A stretch of DNA of 48,315 bases, from the sequence record OR466728.1, one strand, 5' to 3'. Positions 875-45,274 of this stretch are shown here, in pieces. Source of the stretch: Escherichia phage ES. The notes under the pieces were generated by a model, which had not been told where the DNA came from, did not search any database, and was given only the letters and a program-made list of their open reading frames with translations. Both the position numbers and the translations under genes were made by a program. How positions within the stretch are numbered: position 1 is the stretch's first letter; every line of letters starts with the position of its first letter.

Positions 875-1351
875 ATGGATTGGGGTGATTTCTTCTATCT
901 TAGTGATGATTCCGTTTCTGGTATAAAGTGGAAGGTTAATAAGGGTCGGTCAATGGCTGGTGACGACGCTTTAACATCTGTTGGTAATGGATATTACAAA
1001 GGCAGACTCAACCAGAAGACAACGTACGCCCACAGGGTCGTTTACTTTCTTAACTATGGCGTAATCCCTGATGTTATAGATCATATGGATGGTAATGGGC
1101 TTAACAACTCAATAGAAAACCTAAGGGATGGCACCACAGCCAAGAATATGCAAAACAAGCTATGTAAGGGTTACAGCTACAATAAGAGGGATGACGTTTA
1201 TTATGCTCAGGTAACTACAAATGGGGTGACTAAACATGTAGGTTCTTTTGCAAGCAAGGAATTGGCTATTGCTGCTTACCTAAAGGAGAAGGAATTGCAG
1301 CATGATTTCTATAACAAAGAGAGGAAGATATGCTTGTTTGGGAAAGTATGA
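875..1351 (+). CDS. HNH homing endonuclease with AP2-like DNA-binding domain
   Basis: HNH signature YAHRVVY...IDHMDGNGLNN...NLR, then AP2-like C-terminal segment; RBS AAGGAG. Confidence 0.7.
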   Translation: MDWGDFFYLSDDSVSGIKWKVNKGRSMAGDDALTSVGNGYYKGRLNQKTTYAHRVVYFLNYGVIPDVIDHMDGNGLNNSIENLRDGTTAKNMQNKLCKGYSYNKRDDVYYAQVTTNGVTKHVGSFASKELAIAAYLKEKELQHDFYNKERKICLFGKV

Positions 1352-2892
1352 GCCAGCAGGAAAAGCTGGCTGTAAAACTTATATCAGAGAATAGTTTTGA
1401 GGGATTTTTAAGGTGCTGGTTTTCCATTACTCAGGGTGAGAGATACATCCCTAACTGGCACCACAAGTATCTTTGCAGAATCATCGATGAGATTATCGCA
1501 GGTGAGCGTAAGGACACAATCATCAACATAGCACCCGGGAGTGGGAAGACAGAGATAGCATCAATTCACTTCCCAGCCTACTCCATGGTTAAGTTGAAGA
1601 AGGTAAGGAACCTTAACATCTCGTTTGCCGACTCACTTGTTAAGCGTAACTCTAAGCGAGTGCGTGACCTGATTAAGTCGGTTGAGTTCCAGGAGTTGTG
1701 GCCCTGCAAGTTTGGCACATGTAAGGATGATGAGCTACAGATTCTGGATGAGTCTGGTAAGGTTCGGTTTGAGTCAATATCTAAGGCTGCTGGAGGCCAA
1801 ATAACCGGCGCAAGGGGTGGATATATAACGGATTCATATAGCGGAGCGGTTCTGTTAGATGATTTTGACAAACCAGCCGACATGCTTTCTGCTGTTTTTC
1901 GCGCTAACAATCACGTGATGCTAAAGAATACAATACGCTCTCGTAGGGCGAGCTCCGTAAAAGGAAAGGCGACGCCGATTATCTCTATCCAACAGCGCCT
2001 TCATGTGAATGATAGTACGTGGTTCATGATGAATGGCGGTATGGGTATTAGCTTCGACTTGATTAAGATACCGGCGCTCGTAACTGAGGATTACGTCGAA
2101 ACGCTTCCTGACTGGATTAAGCAGCAATTCATTGATGACGTTCTATCAAGCGAATATATTGAGCGTGATGGTGTTAGGTACTATAGCTATTTCCCTGGCA
2201 AGGAATCTGTTCACGACCTAGTTGCAATGTGGGATTCTGATAGCTATACATTCCTTAGCCAGTATCAGCAAGAACCAGTAGCACTTGGCGGCAACCTGAT
2301 TAACGTAGACTGGCTTCAACGCATTAGCGACACTCTGCGACCGCCAGCTAAGTACGATTACAGGTTTATGGTCCTTGATACTGCGATGACAACCAAAAGT
2401 TACAGCGACTTTAGTGTCATGCAGCTATGGGGTTATAAGGATGGGAAGATTTATCTGCTTGACCAGCGGCGCGGTAAATTTGAAGCTCCTGAGCTCGAGG
2501 CTGAGTTATTGAATTTCGAGAAGATGGCTAGGGCATCCAATCAGATAGATGGCATCCTTCGTAAAATCATCATCGAGAAGAAAGCCTCTGGTATTGGCCT
2601 GATTCAATCAGCCGGAAGGGTTATGCGAACGCCTATCGAGCCGTACGTTCCTGATAACGATAAGCTGACTCGCGTAATGAGTGCATTGCCGCAGATTAAA
2701 GCTGGTAACGTAATCCTTCCGGAGTCTGCTACTTGGCTTAATGGCTTGCTAACGGAGATTGCGGCATTCACGGCAGATGATTCACATGTTCACGATGACC
2801 AGATAGACTGTTTGACAATGGCTGTCAACCTGGTACTGAACATTGCAGAAGACCCTAAATCGAGGATGATGCGCCTCGCTGGCATCAAATAG
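1330..2892 (+). CDS. terL: terminase large subunit
   Basis: 520 aa; P-loop IAPGSGKT near N-terminus, acidic C-terminal nuclease-like half; start may be ATG 1348. Confidence 0.75.
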   Translation: MLVWESMSQQEKLAVKLISENSFEGFLRCWFSITQGERYIPNWHHKYLCRIIDEIIAGERKDTIINIAPGSGKTEIASIHFPAYSMVKLKKVRNLNISFADSLVKRNSKRVRDLIKSVEFQELWPCKFGTCKDDELQILDESGKVRFESISKAAGGQITGARGGYITDSYSGAVLLDDFDKPADMLSAVFRANNHVMLKNTIRSRRASSVKGKATPIISIQQRLHVNDSTWFMMNGGMGISFDLIKIPALVTEDYVETLPDWIKQQFIDDVLSSEYIERDGVRYYSYFPGKESVHDLVAMWDSDSYTFLSQYQQEPVALGGNLINVDWLQRISDTLRPPAKYDYRFMVLDTAMTTKSYSDFSVMQLWGYKDGKIYLLDQRRGKFEAPELEAELLNFEKMARASNQIDGILRKIIIEKKASGIGLIQSAGRVMRTPIEPYVPDNDKLTRVMSALPQIKAGNVILPESATWLNGLLTEIAAFTADDSHVHDDQIDCLTMAVNLVLNIAEDPKSRMMRLAGIK

Positions 2893-2907
2893 CACGTTTT
2901 GCTAAAG
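2890..2907 (+). promoter_or_regulatory. dyad box copy 2 (TAGCACGTTTTGCTAAAG)
   Basis: TAG is the terL stop; TATAGT about 22-23 nt downstream; ATG of 2962 is 72 nt downstream. Confidence 0.5.
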
Positions 2908-2961
2908 ACGCGCCGCCAAGGATGGCTTATAGTTACTTCACGCAAACGAGAGGAGTAAAAA

Positions 2962-3315
2962 ATGAAAGCAGTATTTAAAGGGTATAAAAAAGCTGGTTAT
3001 TTTGATTTTACCGTTGGTAAGATTTATGACTTATCAAGAACGCCTGGAAGTAATAATGAATACGTCAAAGTTAAGGATGATAAAGGCTATTTGGGCGTAA
3101 TTAATCTTAGTGTTTATGATTTCGAAGTTATAGAGCCTACCGATTTTGTCGTTAAAGGTGATAATTTTAAAGTTGAAAAGGCTGGGATTAAATACTTCAT
3201 CAACAAAGACATAGTAACTAAAGAGGCATTTTATGAAGTCAGAAGGGAGGTTCGCCAGTTAACACTTAATGGAGTGAAAACATCATCAATCAAGTTCGAA
3301 GTAAAATTCGAGTAA
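2962..3315 (+). CDS. hypothetical Lys-rich protein (AT-rich insertion)
   Basis: 117-aa ORF, RBS GAGAGGAG, AT-rich codon usage unlike flanking genes, own promoter box and terminator. Confidence 0.5.
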   Translation: MKAVFKGYKKAGYFDFTVGKIYDLSRTPGSNNEYVKVKDDKGYLGVINLSVYDFEVIEPTDFVVKGDNFKVEKAGIKYFINKDIVTKEAFYEVRREVRQLTLNGVKTSSIKFEVKFE

Positions 3316-3338
3316 CCATAAAAGCTATGCTAAACTAA

Positions 3339-3358
3339 GCCCCTAAATGGGGCTTTTT
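3339..3358 (+). terminator. rho-independent terminator
   Basis: GCCCC/GGGGC stem, TAAAT loop, 5 T. Confidence 0.55.
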
Positions 3359-3373
3359 ATTGGAGCAAATAAA

Positions 3374-4645
3374 ATGGTAAAAGCAGATTCATACGCCACG
3401 CAATTTCTTGGTGGCTCCAGTGATGGTAGCGAGATTTACGGGCACTTTGGCAACACGTATCTTACACCTCCTTTCGCTGATTCACTGTACGCATCAAACT
3501 CAATTGTACGCCGCATCGTCGACACCATACCGGAGACAGCAATCGCCGCAGGTTTCCATATCGATGGTATTGATAACGAAGGTGAATTCTGGTCCAGGTG
3601 GGATTACCTGAAGGTTAACGAGTCAATCTCTGACGCATGGTCATGGGCGAGGTTATTTGGCGGCTCTGCAATTGTGGCTATCGTTAAGGACAATCGTGCG
3701 CTAACTAGCCCGGTACGTGAAGGCGCGGAACTTGAATCACTTCGCGTTTATGAGCGTAGCCAGGTAAGAGTTCAGACTAAGGAGGAAAACCCTCGCAATG
3801 TGCGATTCGGTAAGCCATTAACGTATCGCATCACGCCAGAAGGTGGCGCCATGTTTTATGATGTGCACTACTCGCGAGTTCACATTATTGATGGCGAGAA
3901 GATTCCTAGTTCATTGCGTCGCGGTAATGACGGGTGGGGTGCTAGCGTTCTGGTTCCTGACCTGCTTGAATCAATCAAGGATTATCAGACGTGTGAGAAA
4001 CTGGCAACTCAGTTATTGCGCCGCAAGCAGCAGGCGGTGTGGAAGGCTAAAGGCCTTGCTGAACTGTGTGACGACGCGGAAGGTTTTGGTGCGGCGAGGT
4101 TGAGGCTTGCCCAGGTTGATGATAACTCTGGCGTTGGTCGCGCGATTGGTATCGACGCTGAAGCTGAAGAGTACAGCGTTCTTAACTCGGATATTGGTGG
4201 GATTGATGGATTCCTCGATAAGAAGTTCGACAGAATTGTTGCTCTGAGCGGTATCCATGAAATCATTCTCAAAGGTCGTAACGTTGGCGGGTTGTCATCA
4301 AGCCAGAATACAGCGCTAGAGACTTTCCACAAGCTAATCGACCGCAAGCGCAATGAGGAGTTACTTCCAGTGCTTGGTTTCTTAATCCCATTCATCACAA
4401 CCGAGCAGGAATGGTCAGTTGAGTTTAACCCTCTAGCTCAGGAATCGAAAAAGGACCGAGCTGAAATACTGAAGAATAACGTTGATTCAATAGCCGCCCT
4501 CATCACTAACGGCGTAATGGATGCTGATGAAGCACGAGATACCTTGCGCGCATTAGCCCCAGAGGTTAAGATTGGTGAGGGTTCGATTGCAAATGAGCAG
4601 CCCGCTCAGGAAGAATCACCAAAAGAGGAGCCTGCAATTGAATAA
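3374..4645 (+). CDS. portal protein (putative)
   Basis: 423 aa from ATG 3374 (RBS GGAG); large ORF directly after terL; call rests on gene order and size. Confidence 0.55.
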   Translation: MVKADSYATQFLGGSSDGSEIYGHFGNTYLTPPFADSLYASNSIVRRIVDTIPETAIAAGFHIDGIDNEGEFWSRWDYLKVNESISDAWSWARLFGGSAIVAIVKDNRALTSPVREGAELESLRVYERSQVRVQTKEENPRNVRFGKPLTYRITPEGGAMFYDVHYSRVHIIDGEKIPSSLRRGNDGWGASVLVPDLLESIKDYQTCEKLATQLLRRKQQAVWKAKGLAELCDDAEGFGAARLRLAQVDDNSGVGRAIGIDAEAEEYSVLNSDIGGIDGFLDKKFDRIVALSGIHEIILKGRNVGGLSSSQNTALETFHKLIDRKRNEELLPVLGFLIPFITTEQEWSVEFNPLAQESKKDRAEILKNNVDSIAALITNGVMDADEARDTLRALAPEVKIGEGSIANEQPAQEESPKEEPAIE

Positions 4646-5792: not shown

Positions 5793-6296
5793 ATGGCAAT
5801 TCGTTCTGTAGCACTGGCAGGTATGGTAGCTGATACTTCCCTGTATAATATCGATGGCGCTTGTGTAGTTGGCGGCAATGCTCAGGCTCGCATTCAGGTT
5901 GGCACAGCAGTCACTGTCACTCCAGACCCGCTAATCGATGGTCATAAAGTTGTTATCGCAGGTGCTTCAGCAACTCTTCCGGCTTACGGCGTTGTAGTTC
6001 GCTCTAGCTATGAAACTCCTGATGGCGCAGCTCGCGGCCAGGAAGCAGTTAACGTCATGAGTCATGGCCGCATCTGGATGCGCACCAGCCTGGCAGCAAA
6101 GCCAGCTTTCGGCTCTGAGGTTTTTGTAAATGGCTCTGGCGTTGCAGTCGCTGGCCCTGCTAGCGATTCAGTCTTCGCAACTGGCTGGACCTATGCTGGC
6201 GGCTTCGCTACAGCTTACACACCTGGTTTACTTCCGATTACCGAAGAACAATCCGTTGATGGCGCAATCGTAGAAGTTCAGGTTAAGCAAAAGTAA
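5793..6296 (+). CDS. Gly/Ala/Val-rich head accessory (decoration-like) protein
   Basis: 167 aa, RBS AAGGAG, between scaffold and capsid genes, followed by terminator. Confidence 0.35.
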   Translation: MAIRSVALAGMVADTSLYNIDGACVVGGNAQARIQVGTAVTVTPDPLIDGHKVVIAGASATLPAYGVVVRSSYETPDGAARGQEAVNVMSHGRIWMRTSLAAKPAFGSEVFVNGSGVAVAGPASDSVFATGWTYAGGFATAYTPGLLPITEEQSVDGAIVEVQVKQK

Positions 6297-6337: not shown

Positions 6338-6390
6338 ATTGCCTTTTATCTGATAGAATGGTAATCACCACAAATAGTCAGGAGATTCAA

Positions 6391-7851
6391 ATGGAGTTAG
6401 TTGAAATCGCTTCAAATAGCTGCGAAGGACTTGAGGCAAAAGCGAAGGCTTTAATGCCATCATTTCAGCCTTATGACAGTATTATTCTGGTAGGTGACTT
6501 GCCAGTCAGGTGTTTAATGGCGTCTGGAACAGACCTAAGCATTACTGATATCAAGTTCCTAACTTTCGGTAGCCGAGCAAGGCTAATCACTGAAATTAAC
6601 AAGATGATTGCTGATGGTTGGGAGATTTTCGGCGAGCCAAAGGCTGACGCAAACAGATTTGGCACAATTATGACCAAAGGCTTTCAGGGCGCTAAGGGTA
6701 CGGCTGGTGTCGCTGGCCCGCAAGGTCCGCAGGGCGTTCAGGGTTTGCAGGGTCCAGAAGGCCCGCAAGGTCCAAAAGGTAATGATGGCGATGATGGTTC
6801 TCAAGGTGAGCGAGGACCACAAGGTCCGCAGGGTATCCGTGGCGAGCAAGGCGTTCAAGGTCCGCAGGGCATCCAGGGGCCAATCGGCTTAACTGGTGAT
6901 ACAGGTCAGCAGGGGCCAGCTGGTCCAACTGGTGCTACTGGTCCTCGTGGACCTCAAGGTGTGCAAGGTGAGGCTGGTCCTGCTGGCGCTACAGGTCTGG
7001 AATTTAAAGGCGCATGGGCTCCAGGTATCGAATACAAAGCAAACGACGCAGTGGCTTATAACGGTTCAACATGGTTTGCTGTGACTGGAAATACAGACGA
7101 GACACCAGGGACGGGAACATCATGGCAGGTAATGGCATCACAAGGTTCTCGCGGACCAGCCGGACCAGAAGGCCCGCAAGGTGATGTTGGCCCGCAAGGT
7201 GAGCAAGGAATTCAAGGACCAATCGGAGCAACTGGACCATCTGGACCTCAGGGCGCAAAAGGTGATACAGGAGACACTGGACCAGCAGGACCAGAAGGAC
7301 CACAAGGTTTAACTGGACCAGCCGGACCGCAAGGCATTCAAGGACCAGCTGGTGTTCGAGGTGCTACTGGTGCAACTGGTGTAAACGGAGCTAATGGCGC
7401 CACAGGACCGCAAGGGCCAGCTGGACCAAATGGTGATTCAGGTCTTAATTACACATATCAGAAATGGTCAAACGTAGCAAATGGCGTTGGGTATGTAACA
7501 ATCCCCGGGATGCCTAATACACAAATAGGAGTTAACAGGAATTCTGCCGGAGCAATTGTGTACACTCTCTATAGTACTGGTGGAACCGTTAGGTATCTTG
7601 ATTGGCGCGCTGAGATACCATCATATGATACAAATGCAATAACCACGGCTGCTGGCACGGCGACAACACCAAGCTCTGCTGGTGTAATAGCAACGATGAA
7701 TACCGTTTTATATAATGGGTTAAGATCAGTCAAATTTATAATTAAGGATTGGGGCGCATCAAGGATTGCTGTAATTGAATGTTACCAACACGGAAGGGCT
7801 AACTCAGACGCGAGGCCTGTTACTATCGAGATGCGCTCATTCTCTTACTAA
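6391..7851 (+). CDS. collagen-like (Gly-X-Y) repeat protein
   Basis: two long uninterrupted G-X-Y tracts (about 6679-6997 and 7141-7453) flanked by globular N- and C-terminal domains; RBS CAGGAG. Confidence 0.8.
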
Positions 7852-7941: not shown

Positions 7942-8886
7942 ATGGCTATTAAGTTTGACGCTGAACAAGCGAAAATCACTGCTCACCTAGAGCAGATGGG
8001 CGTAGATAAAGCTGACGCCGCTGGCATCTGGACCGTCAAGCAACTGACACAGACCCTGAAGCGCAACTACGAGCGTGAATATACCGACAACTCTGTTGTT
8101 AATATCTTCCCGATCAGTAACGAAATCCCTGCTTCTGCTAAATACTTCGAGTACCCAGAATTCGATGGCGTTTCAATCGCTCAGATTATCGCAGACTACT
8201 CCGATGACCTGCCGCTTGTTGACGCGTTCATGACTGAGAAACAAGGTAAAGTGTTCCGCTTCGGTAACGCATTCCTGATCTCCATCGATGAAATCGCAGC
8301 TGGTGCAGCAACTGGTCAATCTCTGTCTGCTCGTAAACAGGCTCTGGCTTTTGAAGCTCACGACAACCTGCTTGACAAACTGGTATGGTTTGGCTCTGCT
8401 CCGCACGGTATTAACAGCGTATTTAATACCCCCAACGCAAGCCGCGTAACCCCGAACGCATGGGTTGATGCCGCTGCTGCTGTTAACGATATCACTCGAA
8501 TGATTGATGCTATCGAAACTAACACGCAGGGTATGCATACTGCTACTGATATCATTCTGCCAGCCTCCGCTCGCCGCTTGATGCAGCAACTGGTTCCTGG
8601 TACTACGATTAGCTATGCTCAGCTGTTCGCAACTAACAATACCAGCGTAAATATTCGCTATTTGCAGTTCCTGGACGATATTGATGGCGCTGGCACTAAA
8701 GCAGCTCTGGCGTTTGAAAAAGACCCGCTGAACATGAGTATTGAAATTCCTGAGGCAACCCACGTATTGCCGGGTCAGCCGAAAGATTTGCATTTCAAAT
8801 ACCCTGTTACTTCCAAGTCTACAGGTCTGGTTGTTTACCGACCTCTGACTCTTGCTATCATGTCTGGCATCGAAATTACCGCATAA
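7942..8886 (+). CDS. major capsid protein (putative)
   Basis: 314 aa, own strong promoter and terminator, RBS AAAGGAAG, position in head module. Confidence 0.6.
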   Translation: MAIKFDAEQAKITAHLEQMGVDKADAAGIWTVKQLTQTLKRNYEREYTDNSVVNIFPISNEIPASAKYFEYPEFDGVSIAQIIADYSDDLPLVDAFMTEKQGKVFRFGNAFLISIDEIAAGAATGQSLSARKQALAFEAHDNLLDKLVWFGSAPHGINSVFNTPNASRVTPNAWVDAAAAVNDITRMIDAIETNTQGMHTATDIILPASARRLMQQLVPGTTISYAQLFATNNTSVNIRYLQFLDDIDGAGTKAALAFEKDPLNMSIEIPEATHVLPGQPKDLHFKYPVTSKSTGLVVYRPLTLAIMSGIEITA

Positions 8887-11559: not shown

Positions 11560-11564
11560 ATTGA

Positions 11565-15594: not shown

Positions 15595-15945
15595 ATGGCA
15601 TTGCAAACATTTAACTGGTGCTTGAACGTTCTCAACGGTGGATCATTATTTAGTAACAAGAACAACGTTAGAATTGTATCCTTTGGCAACGGCTTTGAAC
15701 AAAGGGGTACTGGAGGATACAGGACAAACAAAAGGACGTATACGGTTAGCTACGTTGGTCGTGAGTGGGAGGCAGTAATGAACTTCTGCTTTGATCACAT
15801 TGTAAAACCTTTCGCATGGACTACGCCACAGGGTGAATTAAAGCTGTTTGTTATTCAGCAGGATAGTATCAGCGTCACTCCTAGCACAAAAGAAGTCCAG
15901 ACTGTTAGCATGCAATTTACTGAAGTTTTTACTTCAATGAGTTAA
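15595..15945 (+). CDS. M: minor tail protein (lambda M-like)
   Basis: 116 aa, first gene after tape measure in a lambda-like M-L-K-I-J block. Confidence 0.6.
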   Translation: MALQTFNWCLNVLNGGSLFSNKNNVRIVSFGNGFEQRGTGGYRTNKRTYTVSYVGREWEAVMNFCFDHIVKPFAWTTPQGELKLFVIQQDSISVTPSTKEVQTVSMQFTEVFTSMS

Positions 15946-15950
15946 ACTAA

Positions 15951-15971
15951 GGCCCATAGAGGGCCTTTTTT
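15951..15971 (+). terminator. rho-independent terminator
   Basis: GGCCC/GGGCC stem, ATAGA loop, 6 T. Confidence 0.5.
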
Positions 15972-15983
15972 ATTGGAGAGAAT

Positions 15984-16739
15984 ATGGCAAGTTTAAAGTT
16001 TGAAAACCAGCTTCAATCACTTTTTCCTGGTGAAGTGGTTACGCTTATTGAGGTTGACGGAAGTAAATTCGGGGCAAGGGTTTACAGGTTTCATGGGGAG
16101 AACATCTCATACACGCCTGAAGAAATCATGCAAGCCCAAGCGTCCGGCCAGCCACTACCATCCAAGACAATCACTTTCCGTGGAGAAGAGTATGGAGCCA
16201 GGCCTTTCGGTATTAGCGGCATTAATCTTACTTCTGACGGCAAAGCAAACAAGCTCACGCTAATTTTATCAAACGTAGACCAGGCTGTTTCCGCGCTAAT
16301 ACGTCAGTATAATGGCATGGTTCAGGCTAAGGTGACAATTTGGGTTACTATCAGGGATAATATCAATGAGGACGGCAGCATTGCAGATGGTGATTATCGT
16401 AAGATGGTTTACTTTATTGAGCGCCCAAAGCAGGTTGACTACAAAACTGCCTCTTTTGAGTTATCTAGCCCAATTGATATGGATGGCATTTATATTCCAG
16501 CGAGGTTAGTCCAGTCAGTATGCTACTTCGCTTCTCGCGGCTGGTATCGCAGCGGTAACGGTTGTGATTATGCCGGGAATCGATACTTTGATAAAGACAA
16601 TAATCCGGTTGATGACCCTGGCCTGGATTTCTGCGCCGGAACTGTTGATGCATGTAAGTTAAGGTTTGGTGAAAACAACCAGCTATCATTTGGAGGTTGT
16701 GCCTCTGCCAGTTTACAAGCTAAGAATAACCAGAACTAA
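15984..16739 (+). CDS. L: minor tail protein (lambda L-like)
   Basis: 251 aa with Cys-containing C-terminal region; position in M-L-K-I-J block. Confidence 0.65.
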   Translation: MASLKFENQLQSLFPGEVVTLIEVDGSKFGARVYRFHGENISYTPEEIMQAQASGQPLPSKTITFRGEEYGARPFGISGINLTSDGKANKLTLILSNVDQAVSALIRQYNGMVQAKVTIWVTIRDNINEDGSIADGDYRKMVYFIERPKQVDYKTASFELSSPIDMDGIYIPARLVQSVCYFASRGWYRSGNGCDYAGNRYFDKDNNPVDDPGLDFCAGTVDACKLRFGENNQLSFGGCASASLQAKNNQN

Positions 16740-22910: not shown

Positions 22911-23000
22911 TACACCTATTTACGCCTCGATACGCCATAGTTACATTAAAATATCTATATATATCAACCCTTTACTCTTATTATTATTATTATATATATT
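22911..23000. repeat. control-region repeat block 1 (copy A) with (TA)n/(TTA)n microsatellite
   Basis: about 80% identical to 43029-43121 by eye, including ATATCTATATATATCAACC..TTTACT..ATTATTATTATTAT. Confidence 0.6.
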
Positions 23001-23143
23001 ACTGTGTATATCATGTAACTACTATTCTGTAGTGTTCCGGTTATAATTTTTATATCATGTGATTTTATACAGTATTGCGAGGCACCCATACCTATGCACC
23101 ATCCGCCAAGATCGGTATACACGATATACGCACCATTTACATT

Positions 23144-23197
23144 GAGCTATAGCTGGGCTCAGGCAGTGAAAAACGTAACCAATAGAAATGTCTACAC
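23144..23197. repeat. control-region repeat block 2 (copy A)
   Basis: AGCTATAGCTGGGCT...AAAACGTAACCAAT matches 43256-43308. Confidence 0.6.
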
Positions 23198-24487: not shown

Positions 24488-24968
24488 TTGATAAATTTAA
24501 TGATATCTTTAGATATGATGGTGAAAAGCTGTACTATAAAAACTGGGTAAACGGTAGAAGTAAGTCTCTTGGACTAGAGGCTGGTAGCAAACAGAATGGT
24601 TACTTGAAAGTTACAATTGGCGGCAGAAATTATAAAGTTCATAGAATTATATGGGAAATGGTTAATGGTGAAATACCTGATGGAATGGAATAGATCACAT
24701 AAATCACGTAAAGGATGATAATAGGATTGAGAATCTAAGGCTGGTAACTCACAAGGAAAACTCAAGAAATAGGAAAAAGAGGTCAGATAACTCTTCAGCA
24801 ACACAGGGCGTTTCTCTGCATAAGATTACAAGGAAGTGGCAATCTTATTGCTCTGATAATGATGGAAAAATTATGTACCTTGGATTATTTGAGGATATTA
24901 ATGATGCTATTGATGCTAGGGTTAAGTTCGCCTCACAATGTGACTTCCATGAGAATCATGGTAAATAG
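24484..24968 (+). pseudogene. HNH endonuclease, frameshifted (1-nt deficit near 24689-24691)
   Basis: N-part VHRIIWEMVNGEIPDGME in frame 1 and C-part IDHINHVKDDNRIENLRLVTHKENSRN in frame 0; paralogue of intact 41210-41707. Confidence 0.6.
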
Positions 24969-24983
24969 CAATAATTGCTAAAG
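24966..24983 (+). promoter_or_regulatory. dyad box copy 5 (TAGCAATAATTGCTAAAG)
   Basis: TAG is the stop of the HNH C-terminal frame; TATCAT about 22 nt downstream; ATG of 25039 is 73 nt downstream. Confidence 0.45.
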
Positions 24984-25038
24984 ACAAATCTTATAGGTGG
25001 GGTATCATTACCCCATAGAAACTAAAGAGAGATAGGTA

Positions 25039-33507: not shown

Positions 33508-33927
33508 ATGAAAATCACAGACAAAGGTGATTACCTCGAGTTCTATGGCGGACCGGTGAAGTCATGCCCAAAGGAAGACGATGAACAAATCTTCTGCTCT
33601 GATTGGGTGAAATACAACTATCCGCAGATTGTTTACTGGCACACGATTAACGAAAATAAAAAGAGCATTGGTCAAGCAATAAAAGACCAAGCCAAGGGGC
33701 TTCTCAAAGGTGTGTCAGACTGCTTATTTCTGATACCTGAGTCATTGCGTGGCGGTTATCCATTTGGCGCCATAGAGTTAAAGAGGGCTGGTAAAACGCA
33801 AGCAAGCCCAGTTAGCAATGAGCAAAAGTCATTCCTAAAAAGCGTAAGGGAATCAGGCGGTTTCGCAGCGGTGGCTTATGGAAGAGAGGGTTTTCTTGCG
33901 GCATTCGCAGAGATGATAAGAAAATAG
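33508..33927 (+). CDS. VRR-NUC-like nuclease (putative)
   Basis: 139 aa; ...D...IELKRAGK... PD-(D/E)XK-like core; RBS GGAGG. Confidence 0.45.
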   Translation: MKITDKGDYLEFYGGPVKSCPKEDDEQIFCSDWVKYNYPQIVYWHTINENKKSIGQAIKDQAKGLLKGVSDCLFLIPESLRGGYPFGAIELKRAGKTQASPVSNEQKSFLKSVRESGGFAAVAYGREGFLAAFAEMIRK

Positions 33928-41139: not shown

Positions 41140-41194
41140 TACTTCTCTCCGTATTGTTTCTGAGCGGATATTATATCAACAGCCGCTTATAATA

Positions 41195-41212
41195 CATTAT
41201 CAATTTGTGCTA
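41195..41212 (-). promoter_or_regulatory. dyad box copy 12 (minus strand TAGCACAAATTGATAATG)
   Basis: TAG is the stop of HNH gene 41210-41707; perfect TATAAT 22 nt downstream on minus strand; 56 nt upstream of ATG 41139. Confidence 0.5.
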
Positions 41213-41707
41213 TTTGCCATGATTTGGGTGATAACCCAGCCTCACCTCTGCAACAATTCTTGCCTCACATGCAGAGATAAAGTCATCAAAAAAACCAAGG
41301 TGAACAGTCTTTCCACCACTCTGTATTGAGGCCCTCCACTTACCTGTTCTTTTGTATATGGCGACTCCAGTTACACCACTTTTATTATCAAACCTTAATG
41401 ATGAGTTCATTGAATTCACTTTTTGGGTAACAAGCCTTAGATTTTCAATCCTATTGTCACGCCTATTTCCATTTATGTGGTCTATGAATAGACAATCAGG
41501 TATGTCTCCATTAGTCATCTCCCATATAATTCTGTGAGCCATTGTGTAGCCGATTCCCTTATTGCTAACCCTAACGTACCCGCTTGTTGTAACCTCCGTG
41601 TTAACTGGCTTATTTGCATATTTTGTATTCCAAGATTGAGTTCTATCTGACCTCTCCTTTCTGTACAAAACTGAATCTTTTATATAAAAAATTTCATTCC
41701 AGTTCAT
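41210..41707 (-). CDS. HNH homing endonuclease
   Basis: AHRIIWEMTNGDIPDCLFIDHINGNRRDNRIENLRLVTQKVN; ATG 41707 overlaps upstream stop (ATGA). Confidence 0.7.
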   Translation of the reverse strand: MNWNEIFYIKDSVLYRKERSDRTQSWNTKYANKPVNTEVTTSGYVRVSNKGIGYTMAHRIIWEMTNGDIPDCLFIDHINGNRRDNRIENLRLVTQKVNSMNSSLRFDNKSGVTGVAIYKRTGKWRASIQSGGKTVHLGFFDDFISACEARIVAEVRLGYHPNHGK

Positions 41708-43028: not shown

Positions 43029-43121
43029 ATACACGCCTACCACGCGAGATTACGCAATGGTTACATAATAATATCTATATATATCAACCTTTTACTATAT
43101 TATTATTATTATTATATATAT
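43029..43121. repeat. control-region repeat block 1 (copy B) with (TAT)n microsatellite
   Basis: matches 22911-23000. Confidence 0.6.
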
Positions 43122-43255
43122 GTATGTATATGGTGTAGATTGGTCGTATGGATGGGTCGATAGTTTTTCTATGAAAACTACTAATTTTATCTATATAGAT
43201 ACATATGCATACCCCCGGCGAATCCGCGTAAAATCTTACACAGGGTAATTACACC

Positions 43256-43308
43256 AGCTATAGCTGGGCTGAGAGGTCAAAAAGCGTAACCAATGCAGAT
43301 ATAAACAC
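43256..43308. repeat. control-region repeat block 2 (copy B)
   Basis: matches 23144-23197 (AGCTATAGCTGGGCT...GCGTAACCAAT). Confidence 0.6.
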
Positions 43309-44011: not shown

Positions 44012-44029
44012 ATAGCACTTTTTGCCTAA
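44012..44029 (+). promoter_or_regulatory. dyad box copy 15 (TAGCACTTTTTGCCTAAC)
   Basis: CATAAT 22 nt downstream, CATCGAAAC; ATG of 44093 is 81 nt downstream; spacer contains ATGCCA/TGGCAT hairpin. Confidence 0.5.
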
Positions 44030-44092
44030 CGCAATAATGCCATGGATGGCATAATTATCTCATCGAAACGAGAGGCACAAAGGAAAACGAAA

Positions 44093-44281
44093 ATGGCTAA
44101 GCGCATCACTAAAGAACTTAAAGTCCTGAATAAAGAAAACGTAATCACCATCCTGACAATGTTCGGATACAACGAAGAGTCAGCGATTGCAAAGGTTGAG
44201 GCTGGTTACGATGTTGCAGTACGTAGTATGCCGGAAGCAACCTCAAAAGGTATCGCCGACTTCCTGGCTACCTGCTACTGA
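44093..44281 (+). CDS. hypothetical protein
   Basis: 62 aa from ATG 44093, RBS AAAGGAAAA. Confidence 0.45.
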   Translation: MAKRITKELKVLNKENVITILTMFGYNEESAIAKVEAGYDVAVRSMPEATSKGIADFLATCY

Positions 44282-44336
44282 GTTATCTTACAAGGCATCT
44301 CGCGGGGTGCCTCAATAAGACAACTGGAGAAACAGC

Positions 44337-44522
44337 ATGAAAACTAAAATGGTACATAAGAGCGAAGTTAAGATTGGCGATACTGTTATCCATCGTGGCT
44401 ATCTTAGAACTGTAAATGCCAACACTTTTAGTAAGGATGAGTTTATGGGACTACTTCTTTGGGGCGACTCCTACCGGCTTGGGCAGGAGATGGTTGAAGT
44501 TATAATTGATGTTAAGTTTTGA
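44337..44522 (+). CDS. hypothetical protein
   Basis: 61-aa ORF, RBS GGAGA. Confidence 0.45.
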   Translation: MKTKMVHKSEVKIGDTVIHRGYLRTVNANTFSKDEFMGLLLWGDSYRLGQEMVEVIIDVKF

Positions 44523-44523
44523 A

Positions 44524-44541
44524 TAGCACAAATTGTTAAAC
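44524..44541 (+). promoter_or_regulatory. dyad box copy 16 (TAGCACAAATTGTTAAAC)
   Basis: starts 2 nt after the TGA of 44337-44522; TATAGT 22 nt downstream; ATG of 44599 is 75 nt downstream. Confidence 0.5.
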
Positions 44542-44598
44542 CTTCCGCAAGGCCATTTGATATAGTGGCCTTATTAAAGCAAAGCAAGAGAGGGTGGG

Positions 44599-44829
44599 AT
44601 GGATAGGAACAAATATGAAAGAGAGATTACTGGGCTTAATGGCGAGCGGGCTGTTGTTGATGTGTATCGCACGCTATCAGCGTTCAACGTTACAGACCCA
44701 GCATGTCAGCATGCAATCAAAAAGCTGCTCTGCATGGGTTTACGAGGTCACAAGGATGTTATCACAGACCTTGATGACGCAATAGACTCACTGAACAAGA
44801 TGAAAACTTACCTGGAACAAACGAAATGA
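44599..44829 (+). CDS. hypothetical protein
   Basis: 76-aa ORF, RBS AGAGAGGG. Confidence 0.45.
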   Translation: MDRNKYEREITGLNGERAVVDVYRTLSAFNVTDPACQHAIKKLLCMGLRGHKDVITDLDDAIDSLNKMKTYLEQTK

Positions 44830-45059
44830 TTACAATTAACCTGTCAGAGAAAGATGCAGCAATCCTTAAATCGATCATAATGAAGCCGATGTACTCTACG
44901 CTCACCTTTGAGCAGATGCGTGTCGTAAAAGAGACTAGCGCGCAAATCAACAATCAGCAGTTCGACGTATCAGACTTCGAGTCATCTCGCCAGTACGAGC
45001 AGCTAAGCGTGCAGAATGCTGGCTACCTCACTAACTGGGATAAGGCGACAAAGAGATGA
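44826..45059 (+). CDS. hypothetical protein
   Basis: 77-aa ORF, ATGA overlap with upstream stop. Confidence 0.45.
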   Translation: MITINLSEKDAAILKSIIMKPMYSTLTFEQMRVVKETSAQINNQQFDVSDFESSRQYEQLSVQNAGYLTNWDKATKR

Positions 45060-45202
45060 TTTACATTCACACTTACTATACAGGAAAGTTTAACAGCGTT
45101 AAGCACGTGCGTGTGCATGAAACATACGAATCGGCACATAGTCAGCTTAGAGTTCTTGGTGGAACAATTACAATGTGTGAAATTGTTGAAGAATACAGAT
45201 AG
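45056..45202 (+). CDS. hypothetical small protein
   Basis: 48-aa ORF, ATGA overlap; its TAG stop is the first triplet of a dyad box. Confidence 0.35.
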   Translation: MIYIHTYYTGKFNSVKHVRVHETYESAHSQLRVLGGTITMCEIVEEYR

Positions 45203-45217
45203 CACGAATTGCTAAAC
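45200..45217 (+). promoter_or_regulatory. dyad box copy 17 (TAGCACGAATTGCTAAAC)
   Basis: CATAAT 22 nt downstream, CATCGACAAC; spacer hairpin GCCGGAGTAATCCGGC; ATG of 45275 is 75 nt downstream. Confidence 0.55.
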
Positions 45218-45274
45218 AATCGCCGGAGTAATCCGGCATAATTACTACATCGACAACGAACGAGTAAATGAAGA

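What the first reader, a model, noticed from the sequence alone, without database searches (positions are those of the whole stretch)
2890..3358. AT-rich insertion with its own promoter box and terminator between terL and portal
The 117-aa Lys-rich ORF at 2962-3315 has visibly lower GC than its neighbours, is preceded by box copy 2 and followed by a terminator (3339-3358). It interrupts an otherwise tight terL-portal arrangement, as expected of a horizontally acquired, independently transcribed gene.
Basis: partly seen in the sequence, partly recalled or inferred. Interest (0 to 1): 0.45.

Follow-up and report, generated by a model that had tools for sequence, protein, structure and literature searches.

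The report
Accessory gene between terminase and portal
A small, unusually AT-rich gene sits between the DNA-packaging and portal genes of a T1-like coliphage; it is a dispensable, fast-evolving add-on of unknown function, driven by the phage family's own repeated promoter box, which is an ordinary kind of phage genome mosaicism.

Summary
The window is Escherichia phage AN_ECEAS, a T1-like phage (Drexlerviridae, Braunvirinae). The 117-aa Lys-rich ORF at 2962-3315 has the lowest GC of 76 ORFs (32.8%). A perfect copy of the repeated box lies upstream, and a hairpin plus T-run lies downstream.

The gene is accessory:
- 43 of 55 relatives have a 48-95 nt terL-portal gap.
- The closest relatives (TR1-3, CY1, Rao1) lack the box and the ORF.
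- Other phages carry an HNH endonuclease gene in this slot, or an HNH gene plus this ORF.
- ORF alleles are 33-50% identical between flanks that are 71-96% identical.

However, the terminator is not the gene's own at this site. It is conserved before the portal gene across the family, including at empty sites. The box is the published 21-nt Drexlerviridae repeat. Here it sits 38-39 nt upstream of a -10 hexamer in 17 of 19 copies.

The protein family is confined to T1-like phages. It also occurs as the same kind of cassette between tail genes L and K. AlphaFold2 predicts an SH3-like barrel, a linker and a small beta-beta-alpha-beta domain. No function could be inferred, and I found no evidence for the database label "virion structural protein".

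The parts
1330..2892 (+). terL (large terminase). Its stop codon TAG (2890-2892) lies inside the box.
   Evidence: PF17289 and phrog_38, E 1e-105. Annotated as terminase large subunit in PP944860.
2887..2909 (+). Drexlerviridae 21-nt direct-repeat box (AAATAGCACGTTTTGCTAAAGAC). It contains the palindrome TAGCA-N5-TGCTA.
   Evidence: Perfect match, with 20 copies against 1.7 expected. Repeat family D4. Published consensus aaATAGCACnnnTTGnTAAAA, about 76 nt upstream of start codons (PMC11447400).
2915..2926 (+). Small spacer hairpin GCCA-AGGA-TGGC between the box and the -10 hexamer.
   Evidence: Folded. Homologous positions in relatives have different stems with an NGGA loop (CGCCA/TGGCG, ACTCA/TGAGT, GCTCA/TGAGC). 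Function unknown.
2928..2933 (+). Predicted -10 hexamer TATAGT. Only a weak -35-like AAGACG lies 17 nt upstream.
   Evidence: 18 of 19 box copies have a -10-like hexamer (at least 4 of 6, with A2 and T6). 17 of the 19 hexamers lie 38-39 nt from the box start. The consensus sigma-70 scan did not call this site because the -35 is poor.
2950..2955 (+). Ribosome-binding site GAGGAG, 6 nt before the ATG.
   Evidence: Read directly from the sequence. Conserved in relatives.
2962..3315 (+). Accessory ORF of 117 aa, 13.5 kDa. Predicted SH3-like beta-barrel (aa 1-58, 2962-3135), disordered length-variable linker (aa 61-72, 3142-3177) and beta-beta-alpha-beta domain (aa 76-116, 3187-3309).
   Evidence: phrog_14592, E 9e-29. 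No Pfam, NCBIfam or PADLOC hit. AlphaFold2 pLDDT 82.7, and 94.2 for the C-domain alone. Family alignment.
3041..3280 (+). Hypervariable core of the ORF. DNA homology with relatives is lost here, between a conserved 5' part and a conserved last 35 nt.
   Evidence: blastn breakpoints fall at 3037/3048 and 3280/3281 against three relatives, and at 2958/3281 against IMM-001. See also the alignment.
3328..3336 (+). Extended -10-like TGCTAAACT abutting the terminator stem. Candidate restart promoter for the portal gene.
   Evidence: An equivalent TGnTAAACT, TGTATAAT or TGTACAAT lies 2-4 nt before the hairpin in nearly all relatives. Its function is inferred only.
3337..3361 (+). Intrinsic terminator: stem 3337-3343/3349-3355, loop TAAAT, then T-run.
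   Evidence: Conserved at empty sites and in distant genera, with different stems (GCCCC, GGCTGG, GGGCC).
3374..4645 (+). Portal gene. RBS GGAG at 3362-3365. The true start is 3374, not the ATG at 3347 inside the hairpin.
   Evidence: PF06381, E 1e-66. The start is conserved in relatives.

Best explanation
The feature is a dispensable, fast-evolving accessory gene cassette. It occupies an insertion hot spot between terL and the portal gene of a Braunvirinae (T1-like) phage.

The inserted unit is about 2893-3327: the box promoter, 5'UTR, RBS and ORF.

Predicted expression (inferred from sequence, not shown):
- Host RNA polymerase starts about 7 nt after TATAGT, near 2940.
- The 21-nt box occupies roughly -35 to -55 and acts as an UP-like or activator site.
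- The roughly 420-nt monocistronic mRNA ends at the hairpin and T-run at 3337-3361.
- That hairpin is the family-wide terL|portal terminator and predates the insert.
- The portal gene is then re-initiated from the TGCTAAACT element that abuts the hairpin.

The product is a small two-domain protein: an SH3-like barrel, a flexible linker and a beta-beta-alpha-beta domain. Its termini are conserved and its core is hypervariable.

I take it to be a non-essential protein-binding factor. My rough split is:
- about 0.4 for an intracellular role in phage-host or phage-phage conflict;
- about 0.3 for a virion- or assembly-associated accessory role;
- the rest unknown.

The gene is gained, lost and swapped among T1-like phages by recombination at this junction.
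For: Presence and absence:
- TR2 lacks the box and the ORF but keeps the terminator. The match spans of TR1, TR3, CY1 and Rao1 show the same roughly 430-nt gap.
- 43 of 55 IMG/VR relatives have an empty 48-95 nt gap. Four carry this family and four carry an HNH-like gene.
- RobRod40 stacks an HNH gene and this ORF, each behind its own box.

Dispensability: the phiEB49 copy is split into a 68-aa N-domain and an out-of-frame remnant.

Mosaicism:
- ORF identity is 33-50%, against 74-95% for terL and 71-96% for the portal protein, and the two are uncorrelated.
- TR2 has a portal protein 95% identical but a terL only 81% identical, so the junction is a recombination boundary.

Composition: the ORF has the lowest GC of 76 ORFs.

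Promoter: the box is far above chance. A -10 hexamer sits at a near-fixed offset in 18 of 19 copies. In the structural module, the boxes precede only small or mobile genes: the HNH gene at 804, this ORF, and an 82-aa ORF at 11564.

Real gene: the RBS, the ORF conserved across divergent alleles and confident folds.

Cassette behaviour: a paralogue lies between tail L and tail K in AugustePiccard and TR2. It has the same type of box, 5'UTR, TGTTAAACT, hairpin and TTTTTTATTGGAG. The empty tail site in this window has only 11 nt and no hairpin.
Against: - There are no transcript or proteome data, so the promoter, the terminator and the timing are all predictions.
- RefSeq and PHROGs call the family 'virion structural protein', GenBank says 'putative minor outer capsid protein', and the gene lies in the head module. 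All of this favours a structural role.
- The family is known only from T1-like phages, so no outside donor is identified. Within Braunvirinae, gain and loss cannot be separated.
- Some alleles (Rtp-like L006 and L008) are barely AT-poor, with gap GC of 0.43.
- Homology breakpoints against TR2 are not significantly enriched at boxes (8 of 27, P = 0.19).
Confidence: 0.7

Rival explanations
1. The product is a minor virion component, as the databases say: a head decoration or a portal/connector accessory. The conserved N- and C-terminal peptides anchor it to the particle. The variable core and linker are surface-exposed and diversify.
For: - Match to phrog_14592 'virion structural protein', plus the RefSeq and GenBank labels.
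- The gene is always found inside structural modules, at terL|portal or tail L|K.
- The pattern of conserved termini and a variable middle fits this model.
Against: - I found no experimental basis for the label. Virion proteomics of Rogue1 and of the AHP24 group list only larger proteins, and those phages may lack the gene.
- No solved-structure homologue exists.
- The gene is absent from most relatives that have near-identical portal proteins.
- It is truncated in phiEB49.
- It is driven by the box type found mostly before non-structural genes.
Confidence: 0.28
2. It is an ancestral Braunvirinae gene, not an insertion. It has always sat between terL and the portal gene, evolves fast, and was lost several times. 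Its AT-richness reflects amino-acid composition and weak selection rather than a foreign origin.
For: - The last 35 nt of the ORF, the terminator and the start of the portal gene form one conserved block across Braunvirinae.
- The position is fixed in 10 or more loci.
- No donor exists outside the family.
- The TR2 absence is explained by terL-side replacement.
Against: - More distant genera have the empty site, some with the box directly abutting the -10 element and hairpin. The gene was therefore gained at least once.
- The same slot holds HNH genes instead.
- A paralogous cassette sits in a second slot.
- ORF and flank identities are discordant.
- GC3 is also low (29.9%), so the AT-richness is not only an amino-acid effect.
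Confidence: 0.25
3. It is a passenger of homing-endonuclease traffic. The slot is a target for free-standing HNH genes, and the ORF spreads by co-conversion with them rather than through any benefit of its own.
For: - HNH genes occupy the same slot (L005, L016) or the adjacent position (L040, L055, RobRod40).
- This window has an HNH gene one gene upstream, at 875-1351.
- Several HNH genes end with their stop codon inside a box.
Against: - Most ORF-bearing loci have no HNH gene at this junction.
- The ORF has no nuclease motif.
- Maintained folds and conserved residues across 33-50% identical alleles imply selection on the protein.
Confidence: 0.1
4. It is a spurious ORF in an AT-rich spacer and does not encode a protein.
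For: There is no Pfam or NCBIfam family, and the composition is extreme.
Against: - A strong RBS is present.
- The reading frame is kept in more than 25 divergent clusters, with 26 invariant residues in the 18-sequence alignment.
- The AlphaFold2 models are confident.
Confidence: 0.02

Closest known systems
Phage 'morons' (extra genes between conserved genes of lambdoid and HK97-like phages; Juhala et al. 2000 and Hendrix et al. 2000, cited from my own knowledge)
   Same: An optional gene lies precisely between two conserved neighbours. Its base composition is deviant. A promoter-like element lies upstream and a terminator downstream. It is absent from close relatives.
   Different: - This is a virulent phage, so there is no lysogen in which to express it.
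- The promoter is the phage's own repeated box, not an autonomous host-type promoter.
- The terminator pre-exists at the site.
- The gene family is confined to T1-like phages.
The 21-nt intergenic direct repeat of T1-like phages (aaATAGCACnnnTTGnTAAAA; TLS re-annotation, PMC11447400)
   Same: [quoted passage not shown]
   Different: That paper leaves the function open (stoperator, enhancer site or UP element). Here 17 of 19 copies have a -10 hexamer 38-39 nt from the box start, which favours a promoter-associated element.
PHROG 14592, the RefSeq 'virion structural protein' of Guelphvirus, Rtpvirus and related phages (for example vB_EcoS_CEB_EC3a gp67, phiEB49 gp57, Jk06 JK_35P)
   Same: Full-length HMM match, E 9e-29. 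Same genomic position and same flanking box and terminator.
   Different: Identity is only 35-50%. This allele is basic (pI 9.1) whereas the family is acidic. I found no evidence that any member is in virions.
PeSL 'mobile regulatory cassettes' of T4-type phages (Arbiol et al. 2010, cited from my own knowledge)
   Same: A repeated promoter with a small stem-loop precedes small accessory ORFs. Box-gene units are stacked or missing between relatives. One family occupies two slots.
   Different: - Breakpoint enrichment at boxes is not significant here.
- No circular or recombination intermediates are known.
- The boxes also precede core replication and lysis genes.
Free-standing HNH homing endonuclease genes in intergenic slots
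   Same: They use the same terL|portal slot, sit behind the same box, and are likewise patchy.
   Different: The ORF has no nuclease domain.
Gp54 of phage Bas11 (PDB 9AXB; PMC11578894)
   Same: It is a small, non-essential beta-barrel protein of a Drexlerviridae phage, of unknown function, with SH3-like structural neighbours.

Membership tests
Moron (optional gene unit in a conserved phage gene order) | Present in some and absent from closely related genomes, at a precise point between two conserved genes | tested here: met
   TR2 alignment. Gap survey: 43 of 55 sites empty.
Moron (optional gene unit in a conserved phage gene order) | Own promoter upstream and own terminator downstream | tested here: inconclusive
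   The box and -10 architecture are present, but no transcript data exist. The terminator is present but also exists at empty sites. At the tail L|K slot the cassette does bring a terminator.
Moron (optional gene unit in a conserved phage gene order) | Base composition different from the neighbours | tested here: met
   GC 32.8% against 46-49% in the neighbours. Lowest of 76 ORFs.
Moron (optional gene unit in a conserved phage gene order) | Expressed independently of the surrounding late operon | not testable with these tools
   Needs 5'-end mapping or an RNA-seq time course. No such data were found.
Drexlerviridae 21-nt direct repeat | Match to aaATAGCACnnnTTGnTAAAA | tested here: met
   AAATAGCACGTTTTGCTAAAG at 2887-2907. 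Consensus from PMC11447400.
Drexlerviridae 21-nt direct repeat | Intergenic, in the direction of transcription, about 76 nt upstream of a start codon | tested here: met
   The box starts at 2887 and the ATG is at 2962, so 75 nt, on the same strand.
PHROG 14592 'virion structural protein' | Full-length profile match | tested here: met
   E 9.3e-29, residues 1-117 against profile positions 2-116 of 116.
PHROG 14592 'virion structural protein' | Protein physically present in virions | not testable with these tools
   The proteomics papers I could read do not list it. The Rtp and phiEB49 papers are not held.
Rho-independent terminator | GC-rich stem-loop followed by a T-run | tested here: met
   7-bp stem with 5 GC pairs, then TTTATT. 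-16.5 kcal/mol.
Rho-independent terminator | Conserved structure with compensating stem changes in relatives | tested here: met
   Stems GCCCC/GGGGC, GGCTGG/CCAGCC and GGGCC/GGCCC at the same position in more than 50 loci.
SH3-like beta-barrel fold (N-terminal domain) | Significant structural match to SH3 domains | tested here: inconclusive
PeSL-like mobile regulatory cassette | Repeats coincide with insertion/deletion breakpoints more often than chance | tested here: not met
   8 of 27 window-versus-TR2 gaps have a box at a breakpoint. P = 0.19 against random intergenic placement.
Homing endonuclease | Nuclease domain (HNH, GIY-YIG or LAGLIDADG) | tested here: not met
   No Pfam or NCBIfam hit.

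The most novel reading that the evidence does not exclude
The unit 'box promoter - small ORF - TGnTAAACT - hairpin - TTTTTTATTGGAG RBS' is a self-contained, mobile expression cassette of T1-like phages. It can be dropped between translationally adjacent structural genes, re-supplying the downstream gene's RBS. It is seen at terL|portal and at tail L|K. It carries a hypervariable two-domain binding protein that acts in phage-host or phage-phage conflict. The 21-nt repeat would then be both a promoter element and a joint for modular shuffling, comparable to T4 PeSLs.
Probability: 0.2. Interest if true: 0.55.

Novelty: new member of a known kind. Interest (0 to 1): 0.3.

Why it matters
In itself this is routine phage mosaicism: an optional gene of unknown function in a known hot-spot style of architecture.

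Three things give it modest value:
- It shows that a database label ('virion structural protein' or 'minor outer capsid protein') rests on no evidence I could find. The family behaves like an accessory, diversifying gene.
- The near-fixed 38-39 nt spacing between the T1-type 21-nt repeat and a -10 hexamer bears on a question the TLS authors list as open, namely what the repeat does.
- The terL|portal junction of Drexlerviridae is a defined, naturally tolerated insertion site, with ready-made promoter and terminator punctuation. That could be useful for engineering T1-like phages.

Tried and rejected
Searches for a known family or function, all negative:
- Pfam, NCBIfam and PADLOC gave no hit.
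- PDB sequence searches with the single protein and with the profile gave nothing below E 0.02.
- Foldseek against viral models found only family members and unannotated small barrels.
- Rfam gave nothing at threshold in 2700-3500.

Profile search of 1.84 billion representatives: only about 26 full-length relatives. The four weak hits to large proteins are repetitive Ig-like, lectin or secreted proteins, and I dismissed them as chance or compositional matches.

DNA-binding idea (a Lys-rich, Sso7d-like barrel): rejected, because nearly all family members are acidic.

The box as a canonical sigma-70 -35 element: rejected, because TTGCTA lies 22-24 nt from the -10 hexamer.

Boxes as recombination joints: tested against TR2 and not significant. 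blastn alignments would in any case tend to end at conserved boxes.

Literature: I found no transcriptome of a T1-like phage. The Rtp and phiEB49 papers could not be read.
Full report
IDENTITY AND CONTEXT. Window 2400-3900 is 100% identical to Escherichia phage AN_ECEAS (PP944860.1; Drexlerviridae, Braunvirinae), a T1-like coliphage. The local gene order is as follows:
- terS, 283-807 (PF16677)
- HNH endonuclease, 875-1351 (PF13392)
- terL, 1330-2892 (PF17289; phrog_38)
- the 117-aa ORF, 2962-3315
- portal gene, 3374-4645 (PF06381)
GenBank calls the ORF 'putative minor outer capsid protein'.

- The ORF is 117 aa with 14.5% Lys and pI 9.1.
- Its GC is 32.8% and its GC3 is 29.9%. That is the lowest of 76 non-overlapping ORFs (mean 43.1%, sd 4.2). 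Only 0.23% of equal-sized windows are as AT-rich.
- The neighbours have GC of 46% (terL) and 49% (portal). The profile dips to 0.34.
- ATAGCACGTTTTGCTAA at 2889-2905 is a zero-mismatch copy of a motif with 20 matches, against 1.7 expected.
- A 7-bp GC-rich hairpin at 3337-3355 is followed by a T-run.

WHAT THE BOX IS. It is the published 21-nt direct repeat of T1-like phages, aaATAGCACnnnTTGnTAAAA.
- The TLS re-annotation (PMC11447400) finds it upstream of 18 TLS genes, about 76 nt before start codons. The authors also see it in T1, Rtp and Rogue1.
- That paper leaves its function open, suggesting a stoperator, an enhancer site or an UP element.
- In this window I lined up 19 copies. 18 of them have a -10-like hexamer, and 17 of the 19 hexamers lie 38-39 nt from the box start (14 at exactly 38).
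- For this ORF the hexamer is TATAGT at 2928-2933.
- The -35 position holds only AAAGAC-like sequence, which is why the consensus scan did not call it. The TTGCTA inside the box is 22-24 nt from the -10 hexamer, too far to serve as a -35.
- The box is therefore best read as an UP-like or activator element of a phage-typical promoter class. This is inference; no transcript data were found.
- Boxes precede genes of all classes: recombinase, helicase, polynucleotide kinase, the lysis cluster, the lipoprotein and many small ORFs.
- Inside the structural module they precede only the HNH gene (box at 804), this ORF (2889) and an 82-aa ORF (11564).

THE TERMINATOR IS NOT THE ORF'S OWN.
- The alignment with TR2 shows that TR2 lacks the box and the ORF. 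It keeps '...TGATAAACTAGCCTCTTAAATGGGGCTTTTTTATTGGAGCAAGAAAATG' between terL and the portal gene.
- Across 58 loci, a hairpin, T-run and GGAG sit immediately before the portal gene whether or not a gene is inserted. Distant genera have different stems (GGCTGG/CCAGCC, GGGCC/GGCCC), which amounts to covariation.
- Just before the hairpin almost all loci carry an extended -10-like element: TGnTAAACT in Braunvirinae, and TGTATAAT, TGTACAAT or TGTAAAAT elsewhere.
- A start about 7 nt downstream of that element would fall inside the 5' arm of the stem. Read-through RNA would then terminate while newly initiated portal RNA would not. This is a hypothesis.

THE GENE IS OPTIONAL AND THE SLOT IS A HOT SPOT. 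Of 55 IMG/VR loci found with the portal protein, analysed:
- 43 have a terL-portal gap of 48-95 nt.
- 4 carry this ORF family, including Rtp (the contig lengths point to phiEB49 and Sd1 as well).
- 4 carry an HNH-like gene.
- 2 have gaps of 140-146 nt, where the portal start was only estimated.
- 2 lack terL on the contig.

Further points:
- RobRod40 has terL - box - HNH - box - ORF - terminator - portal.
- tblastn finds the ORF in 23 phage records at 35-50% identity.
- Three metagenomic members checked also lie exactly between terL and the portal gene, as does P0028.
- phiEB49 has only a 68-aa N-domain ORF plus an out-of-frame C-terminal remnant, so the intact protein is dispensable.

MOSAICISM.
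- Protein identity of the ORF to relatives is 33-50%. The flanking terL is 74-95% identical and the portal protein 71-96%. The two measures are uncorrelated: IMM-001 and L061 have the most similar flanks (94-96%) and only 34.5% and 39% for the ORF.
- DNA homology stops at about 3037-3048 (at 2958 for IMM-001) and resumes sharply at 3280-3281 in every comparison.
- The variable part is therefore an internal core, flanked by a conserved N-terminus (MKAVFKGY...) and C-terminus (...SSIKFEVKFE).
- TR2 has a 95% identical portal protein but only an 81% identical terL. Its lack of the ORF is best explained by replacement of the left side, with a crossover in the conserved terminator region.

A SECOND SLOT.
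- A distant family member, P0039 (profile E 4.7e-6, full length), lies in phage AugustePiccard between tail genes L and K.
- That phage also has a copy at terL|portal.
- The tail copy is preceded by ATAGCACGAATTGCTAAAC...TATAGTTACTTCATCGAAACGAGAGGAG. It is followed by TGTTAAACTAG, a hairpin and TTTTTTATTGGAG before the ATG of tail K.
- TR2 has the same cassette there, with a 69-aa ORF that matches the family's N-domain (E 0.004 among about 2,300 fragments).
- The promoter and 5'UTR of the TR2 tail cassette are 77.5% identical to 2888-2967 of this window.
- In this window the L|K junction is empty: 11 nt and no hairpin. At that slot the terminator does travel with the cassette.
- The same 3' module also separates tail M and tail L here, at 15940-15985. 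These are therefore standard punctuation marks of the genome.

THE PROTEIN.
- The family is small: 18 clusters among 5.8 billion proteins, and about 26 representatives at 50% identity among 1.84 billion. All that I checked are in T1-like contexts.
- AlphaFold2 on 18 sequences (pLDDT 82.7) gives a five-stranded barrel (aa 1-58), a disordered linker (61-72, where homologues carry insertions of up to about 23 aa) and a beta-beta-alpha-beta unit (76-116). The C-domain alone has pLDDT 94.2.
- No Pfam, NCBIfam, PADLOC or PDB sequence match exists.
- Most members are acidic (pI 4.4-5.6). The AN_ECEAS allele (pI 9.1) and its 99% identical twin P0001 are the only basic ones. 'Lys-rich' is thus allele-specific, and a family-wide DNA-binding role is unlikely.
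- I found no experimental support for the 'virion structural protein' label. The Rogue1 and AHP24-group proteomes list only larger proteins, and the Rtp and phiEB49 papers are not held.

VERDICT.
- The reading 'optional, compositionally deviant gene with its own promoter' is supported.
- 'Own terminator' is not supported at this site. 'Horizontally acquired' holds only as shuffling within T1-like phages.
- The feature is a moron-like accessory cassette of unknown function, which is an ordinary kind of phage mosaicism with some tidy anatomy.
- The idea that the boxes are recombination joints was tested against TR2 and is not significant (8 of 27 gaps, P = 0.19).

Noticed in passing
window 3328-3361; L004-L058, about 60 nt upstream of the portal start: Nearly all Drexlerviridae relatives have an extended -10-like element (TGnTAAACT, TGTATAAT or TGTACAAT) 2-4 nt before the conserved terL|portal terminator hairpin. 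A start about 7 nt downstream would lie inside the stem. Read-through RNA would terminate while newly started portal RNA would not.
   Followed up: partly
window, 19 box copies (804, 2889, 11564, 22852-, 24965, 28756, 30288, 31694, 33924, 34178, 36659, 37746, 41213-, 42171-, 42788-, 44012, 44523, 45199, 46545): The published T1-type 21-nt repeat has a -10-like hexamer in 18 of 19 copies, and 17 of the 19 hexamers lie 38-39 nt from the box start. The spacer often forms a small hairpin with an NGGA or GNRA-like loop, and its stem differs between copies and between phages. This points to a promoter class with an upstream factor or UP site, and bears on a question left open in PMC11447400.
   Followed up: partly
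window 6358-7851: A 497-aa collagen-like (Gly-X-Y) ORF lies between the cement/decoration gene (5793-6296) and the major capsid gene (7942-8886). Here the window has 1737 nt with no blastn match to TR2, whose corresponding interval is only 218 nt. GenBank calls it 'putative tail fiber protein'. Rogue1 has a 57.8-kDa virion protein with GPVGP repeats (PMC3496638) that may be comparable.
   Followed up: partly
window 24940-24985 and 41190-41260 (- strand); L040 and L055 near 3950: HNH endonuclease genes end in ...HGK* with their stop codon embedded in a box (AAATAGCAC), as terL does. HNH genes and boxes are closely associated throughout these genomes.
   Followed up: no
window 44012-45220: A window-specific 1180-nt segment, holding three box-gene units, is bounded exactly by boxes at 44012 and 45199. 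TR2 has a single box at that place. A 167-nt unit between the boxes at 33924 and 34178 also looks like a tandem box-unit duplication. Overall enrichment of breakpoints at boxes was not significant (P = 0.19).
   Followed up: yes
This is either decay or a domain-only variant.
   Followed up: partly
window 22931-23197 and 43051-43308: Two AT-rich stretches about 20 kb apart share 74-75% identical segments of 87 nt and 53 nt, including TATATATAT and ATTATTATT runs. Both lie in divergent intergenic regions. They may be origin-like or regulatory regions.
   Followed up: no
PP944860.1 record ends (window 4361-4435): The GenBank record is linearised inside the portal gene, which is therefore not annotated. 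Record positions 1-75 repeat its last 75 nt. The last 40 nt of the window are not found in that record, so the window may come from a slightly different assembly.
   Followed up: partly
window 15940-15985: The module TAAACTAAG - hairpin (GGCCC/GGGCC) - TTTTTTATTGGAG - ATG also separates tail genes M and L. It is a recurring terminator-plus-RBS punctuation mark of the structural region.
   Followed up: partly
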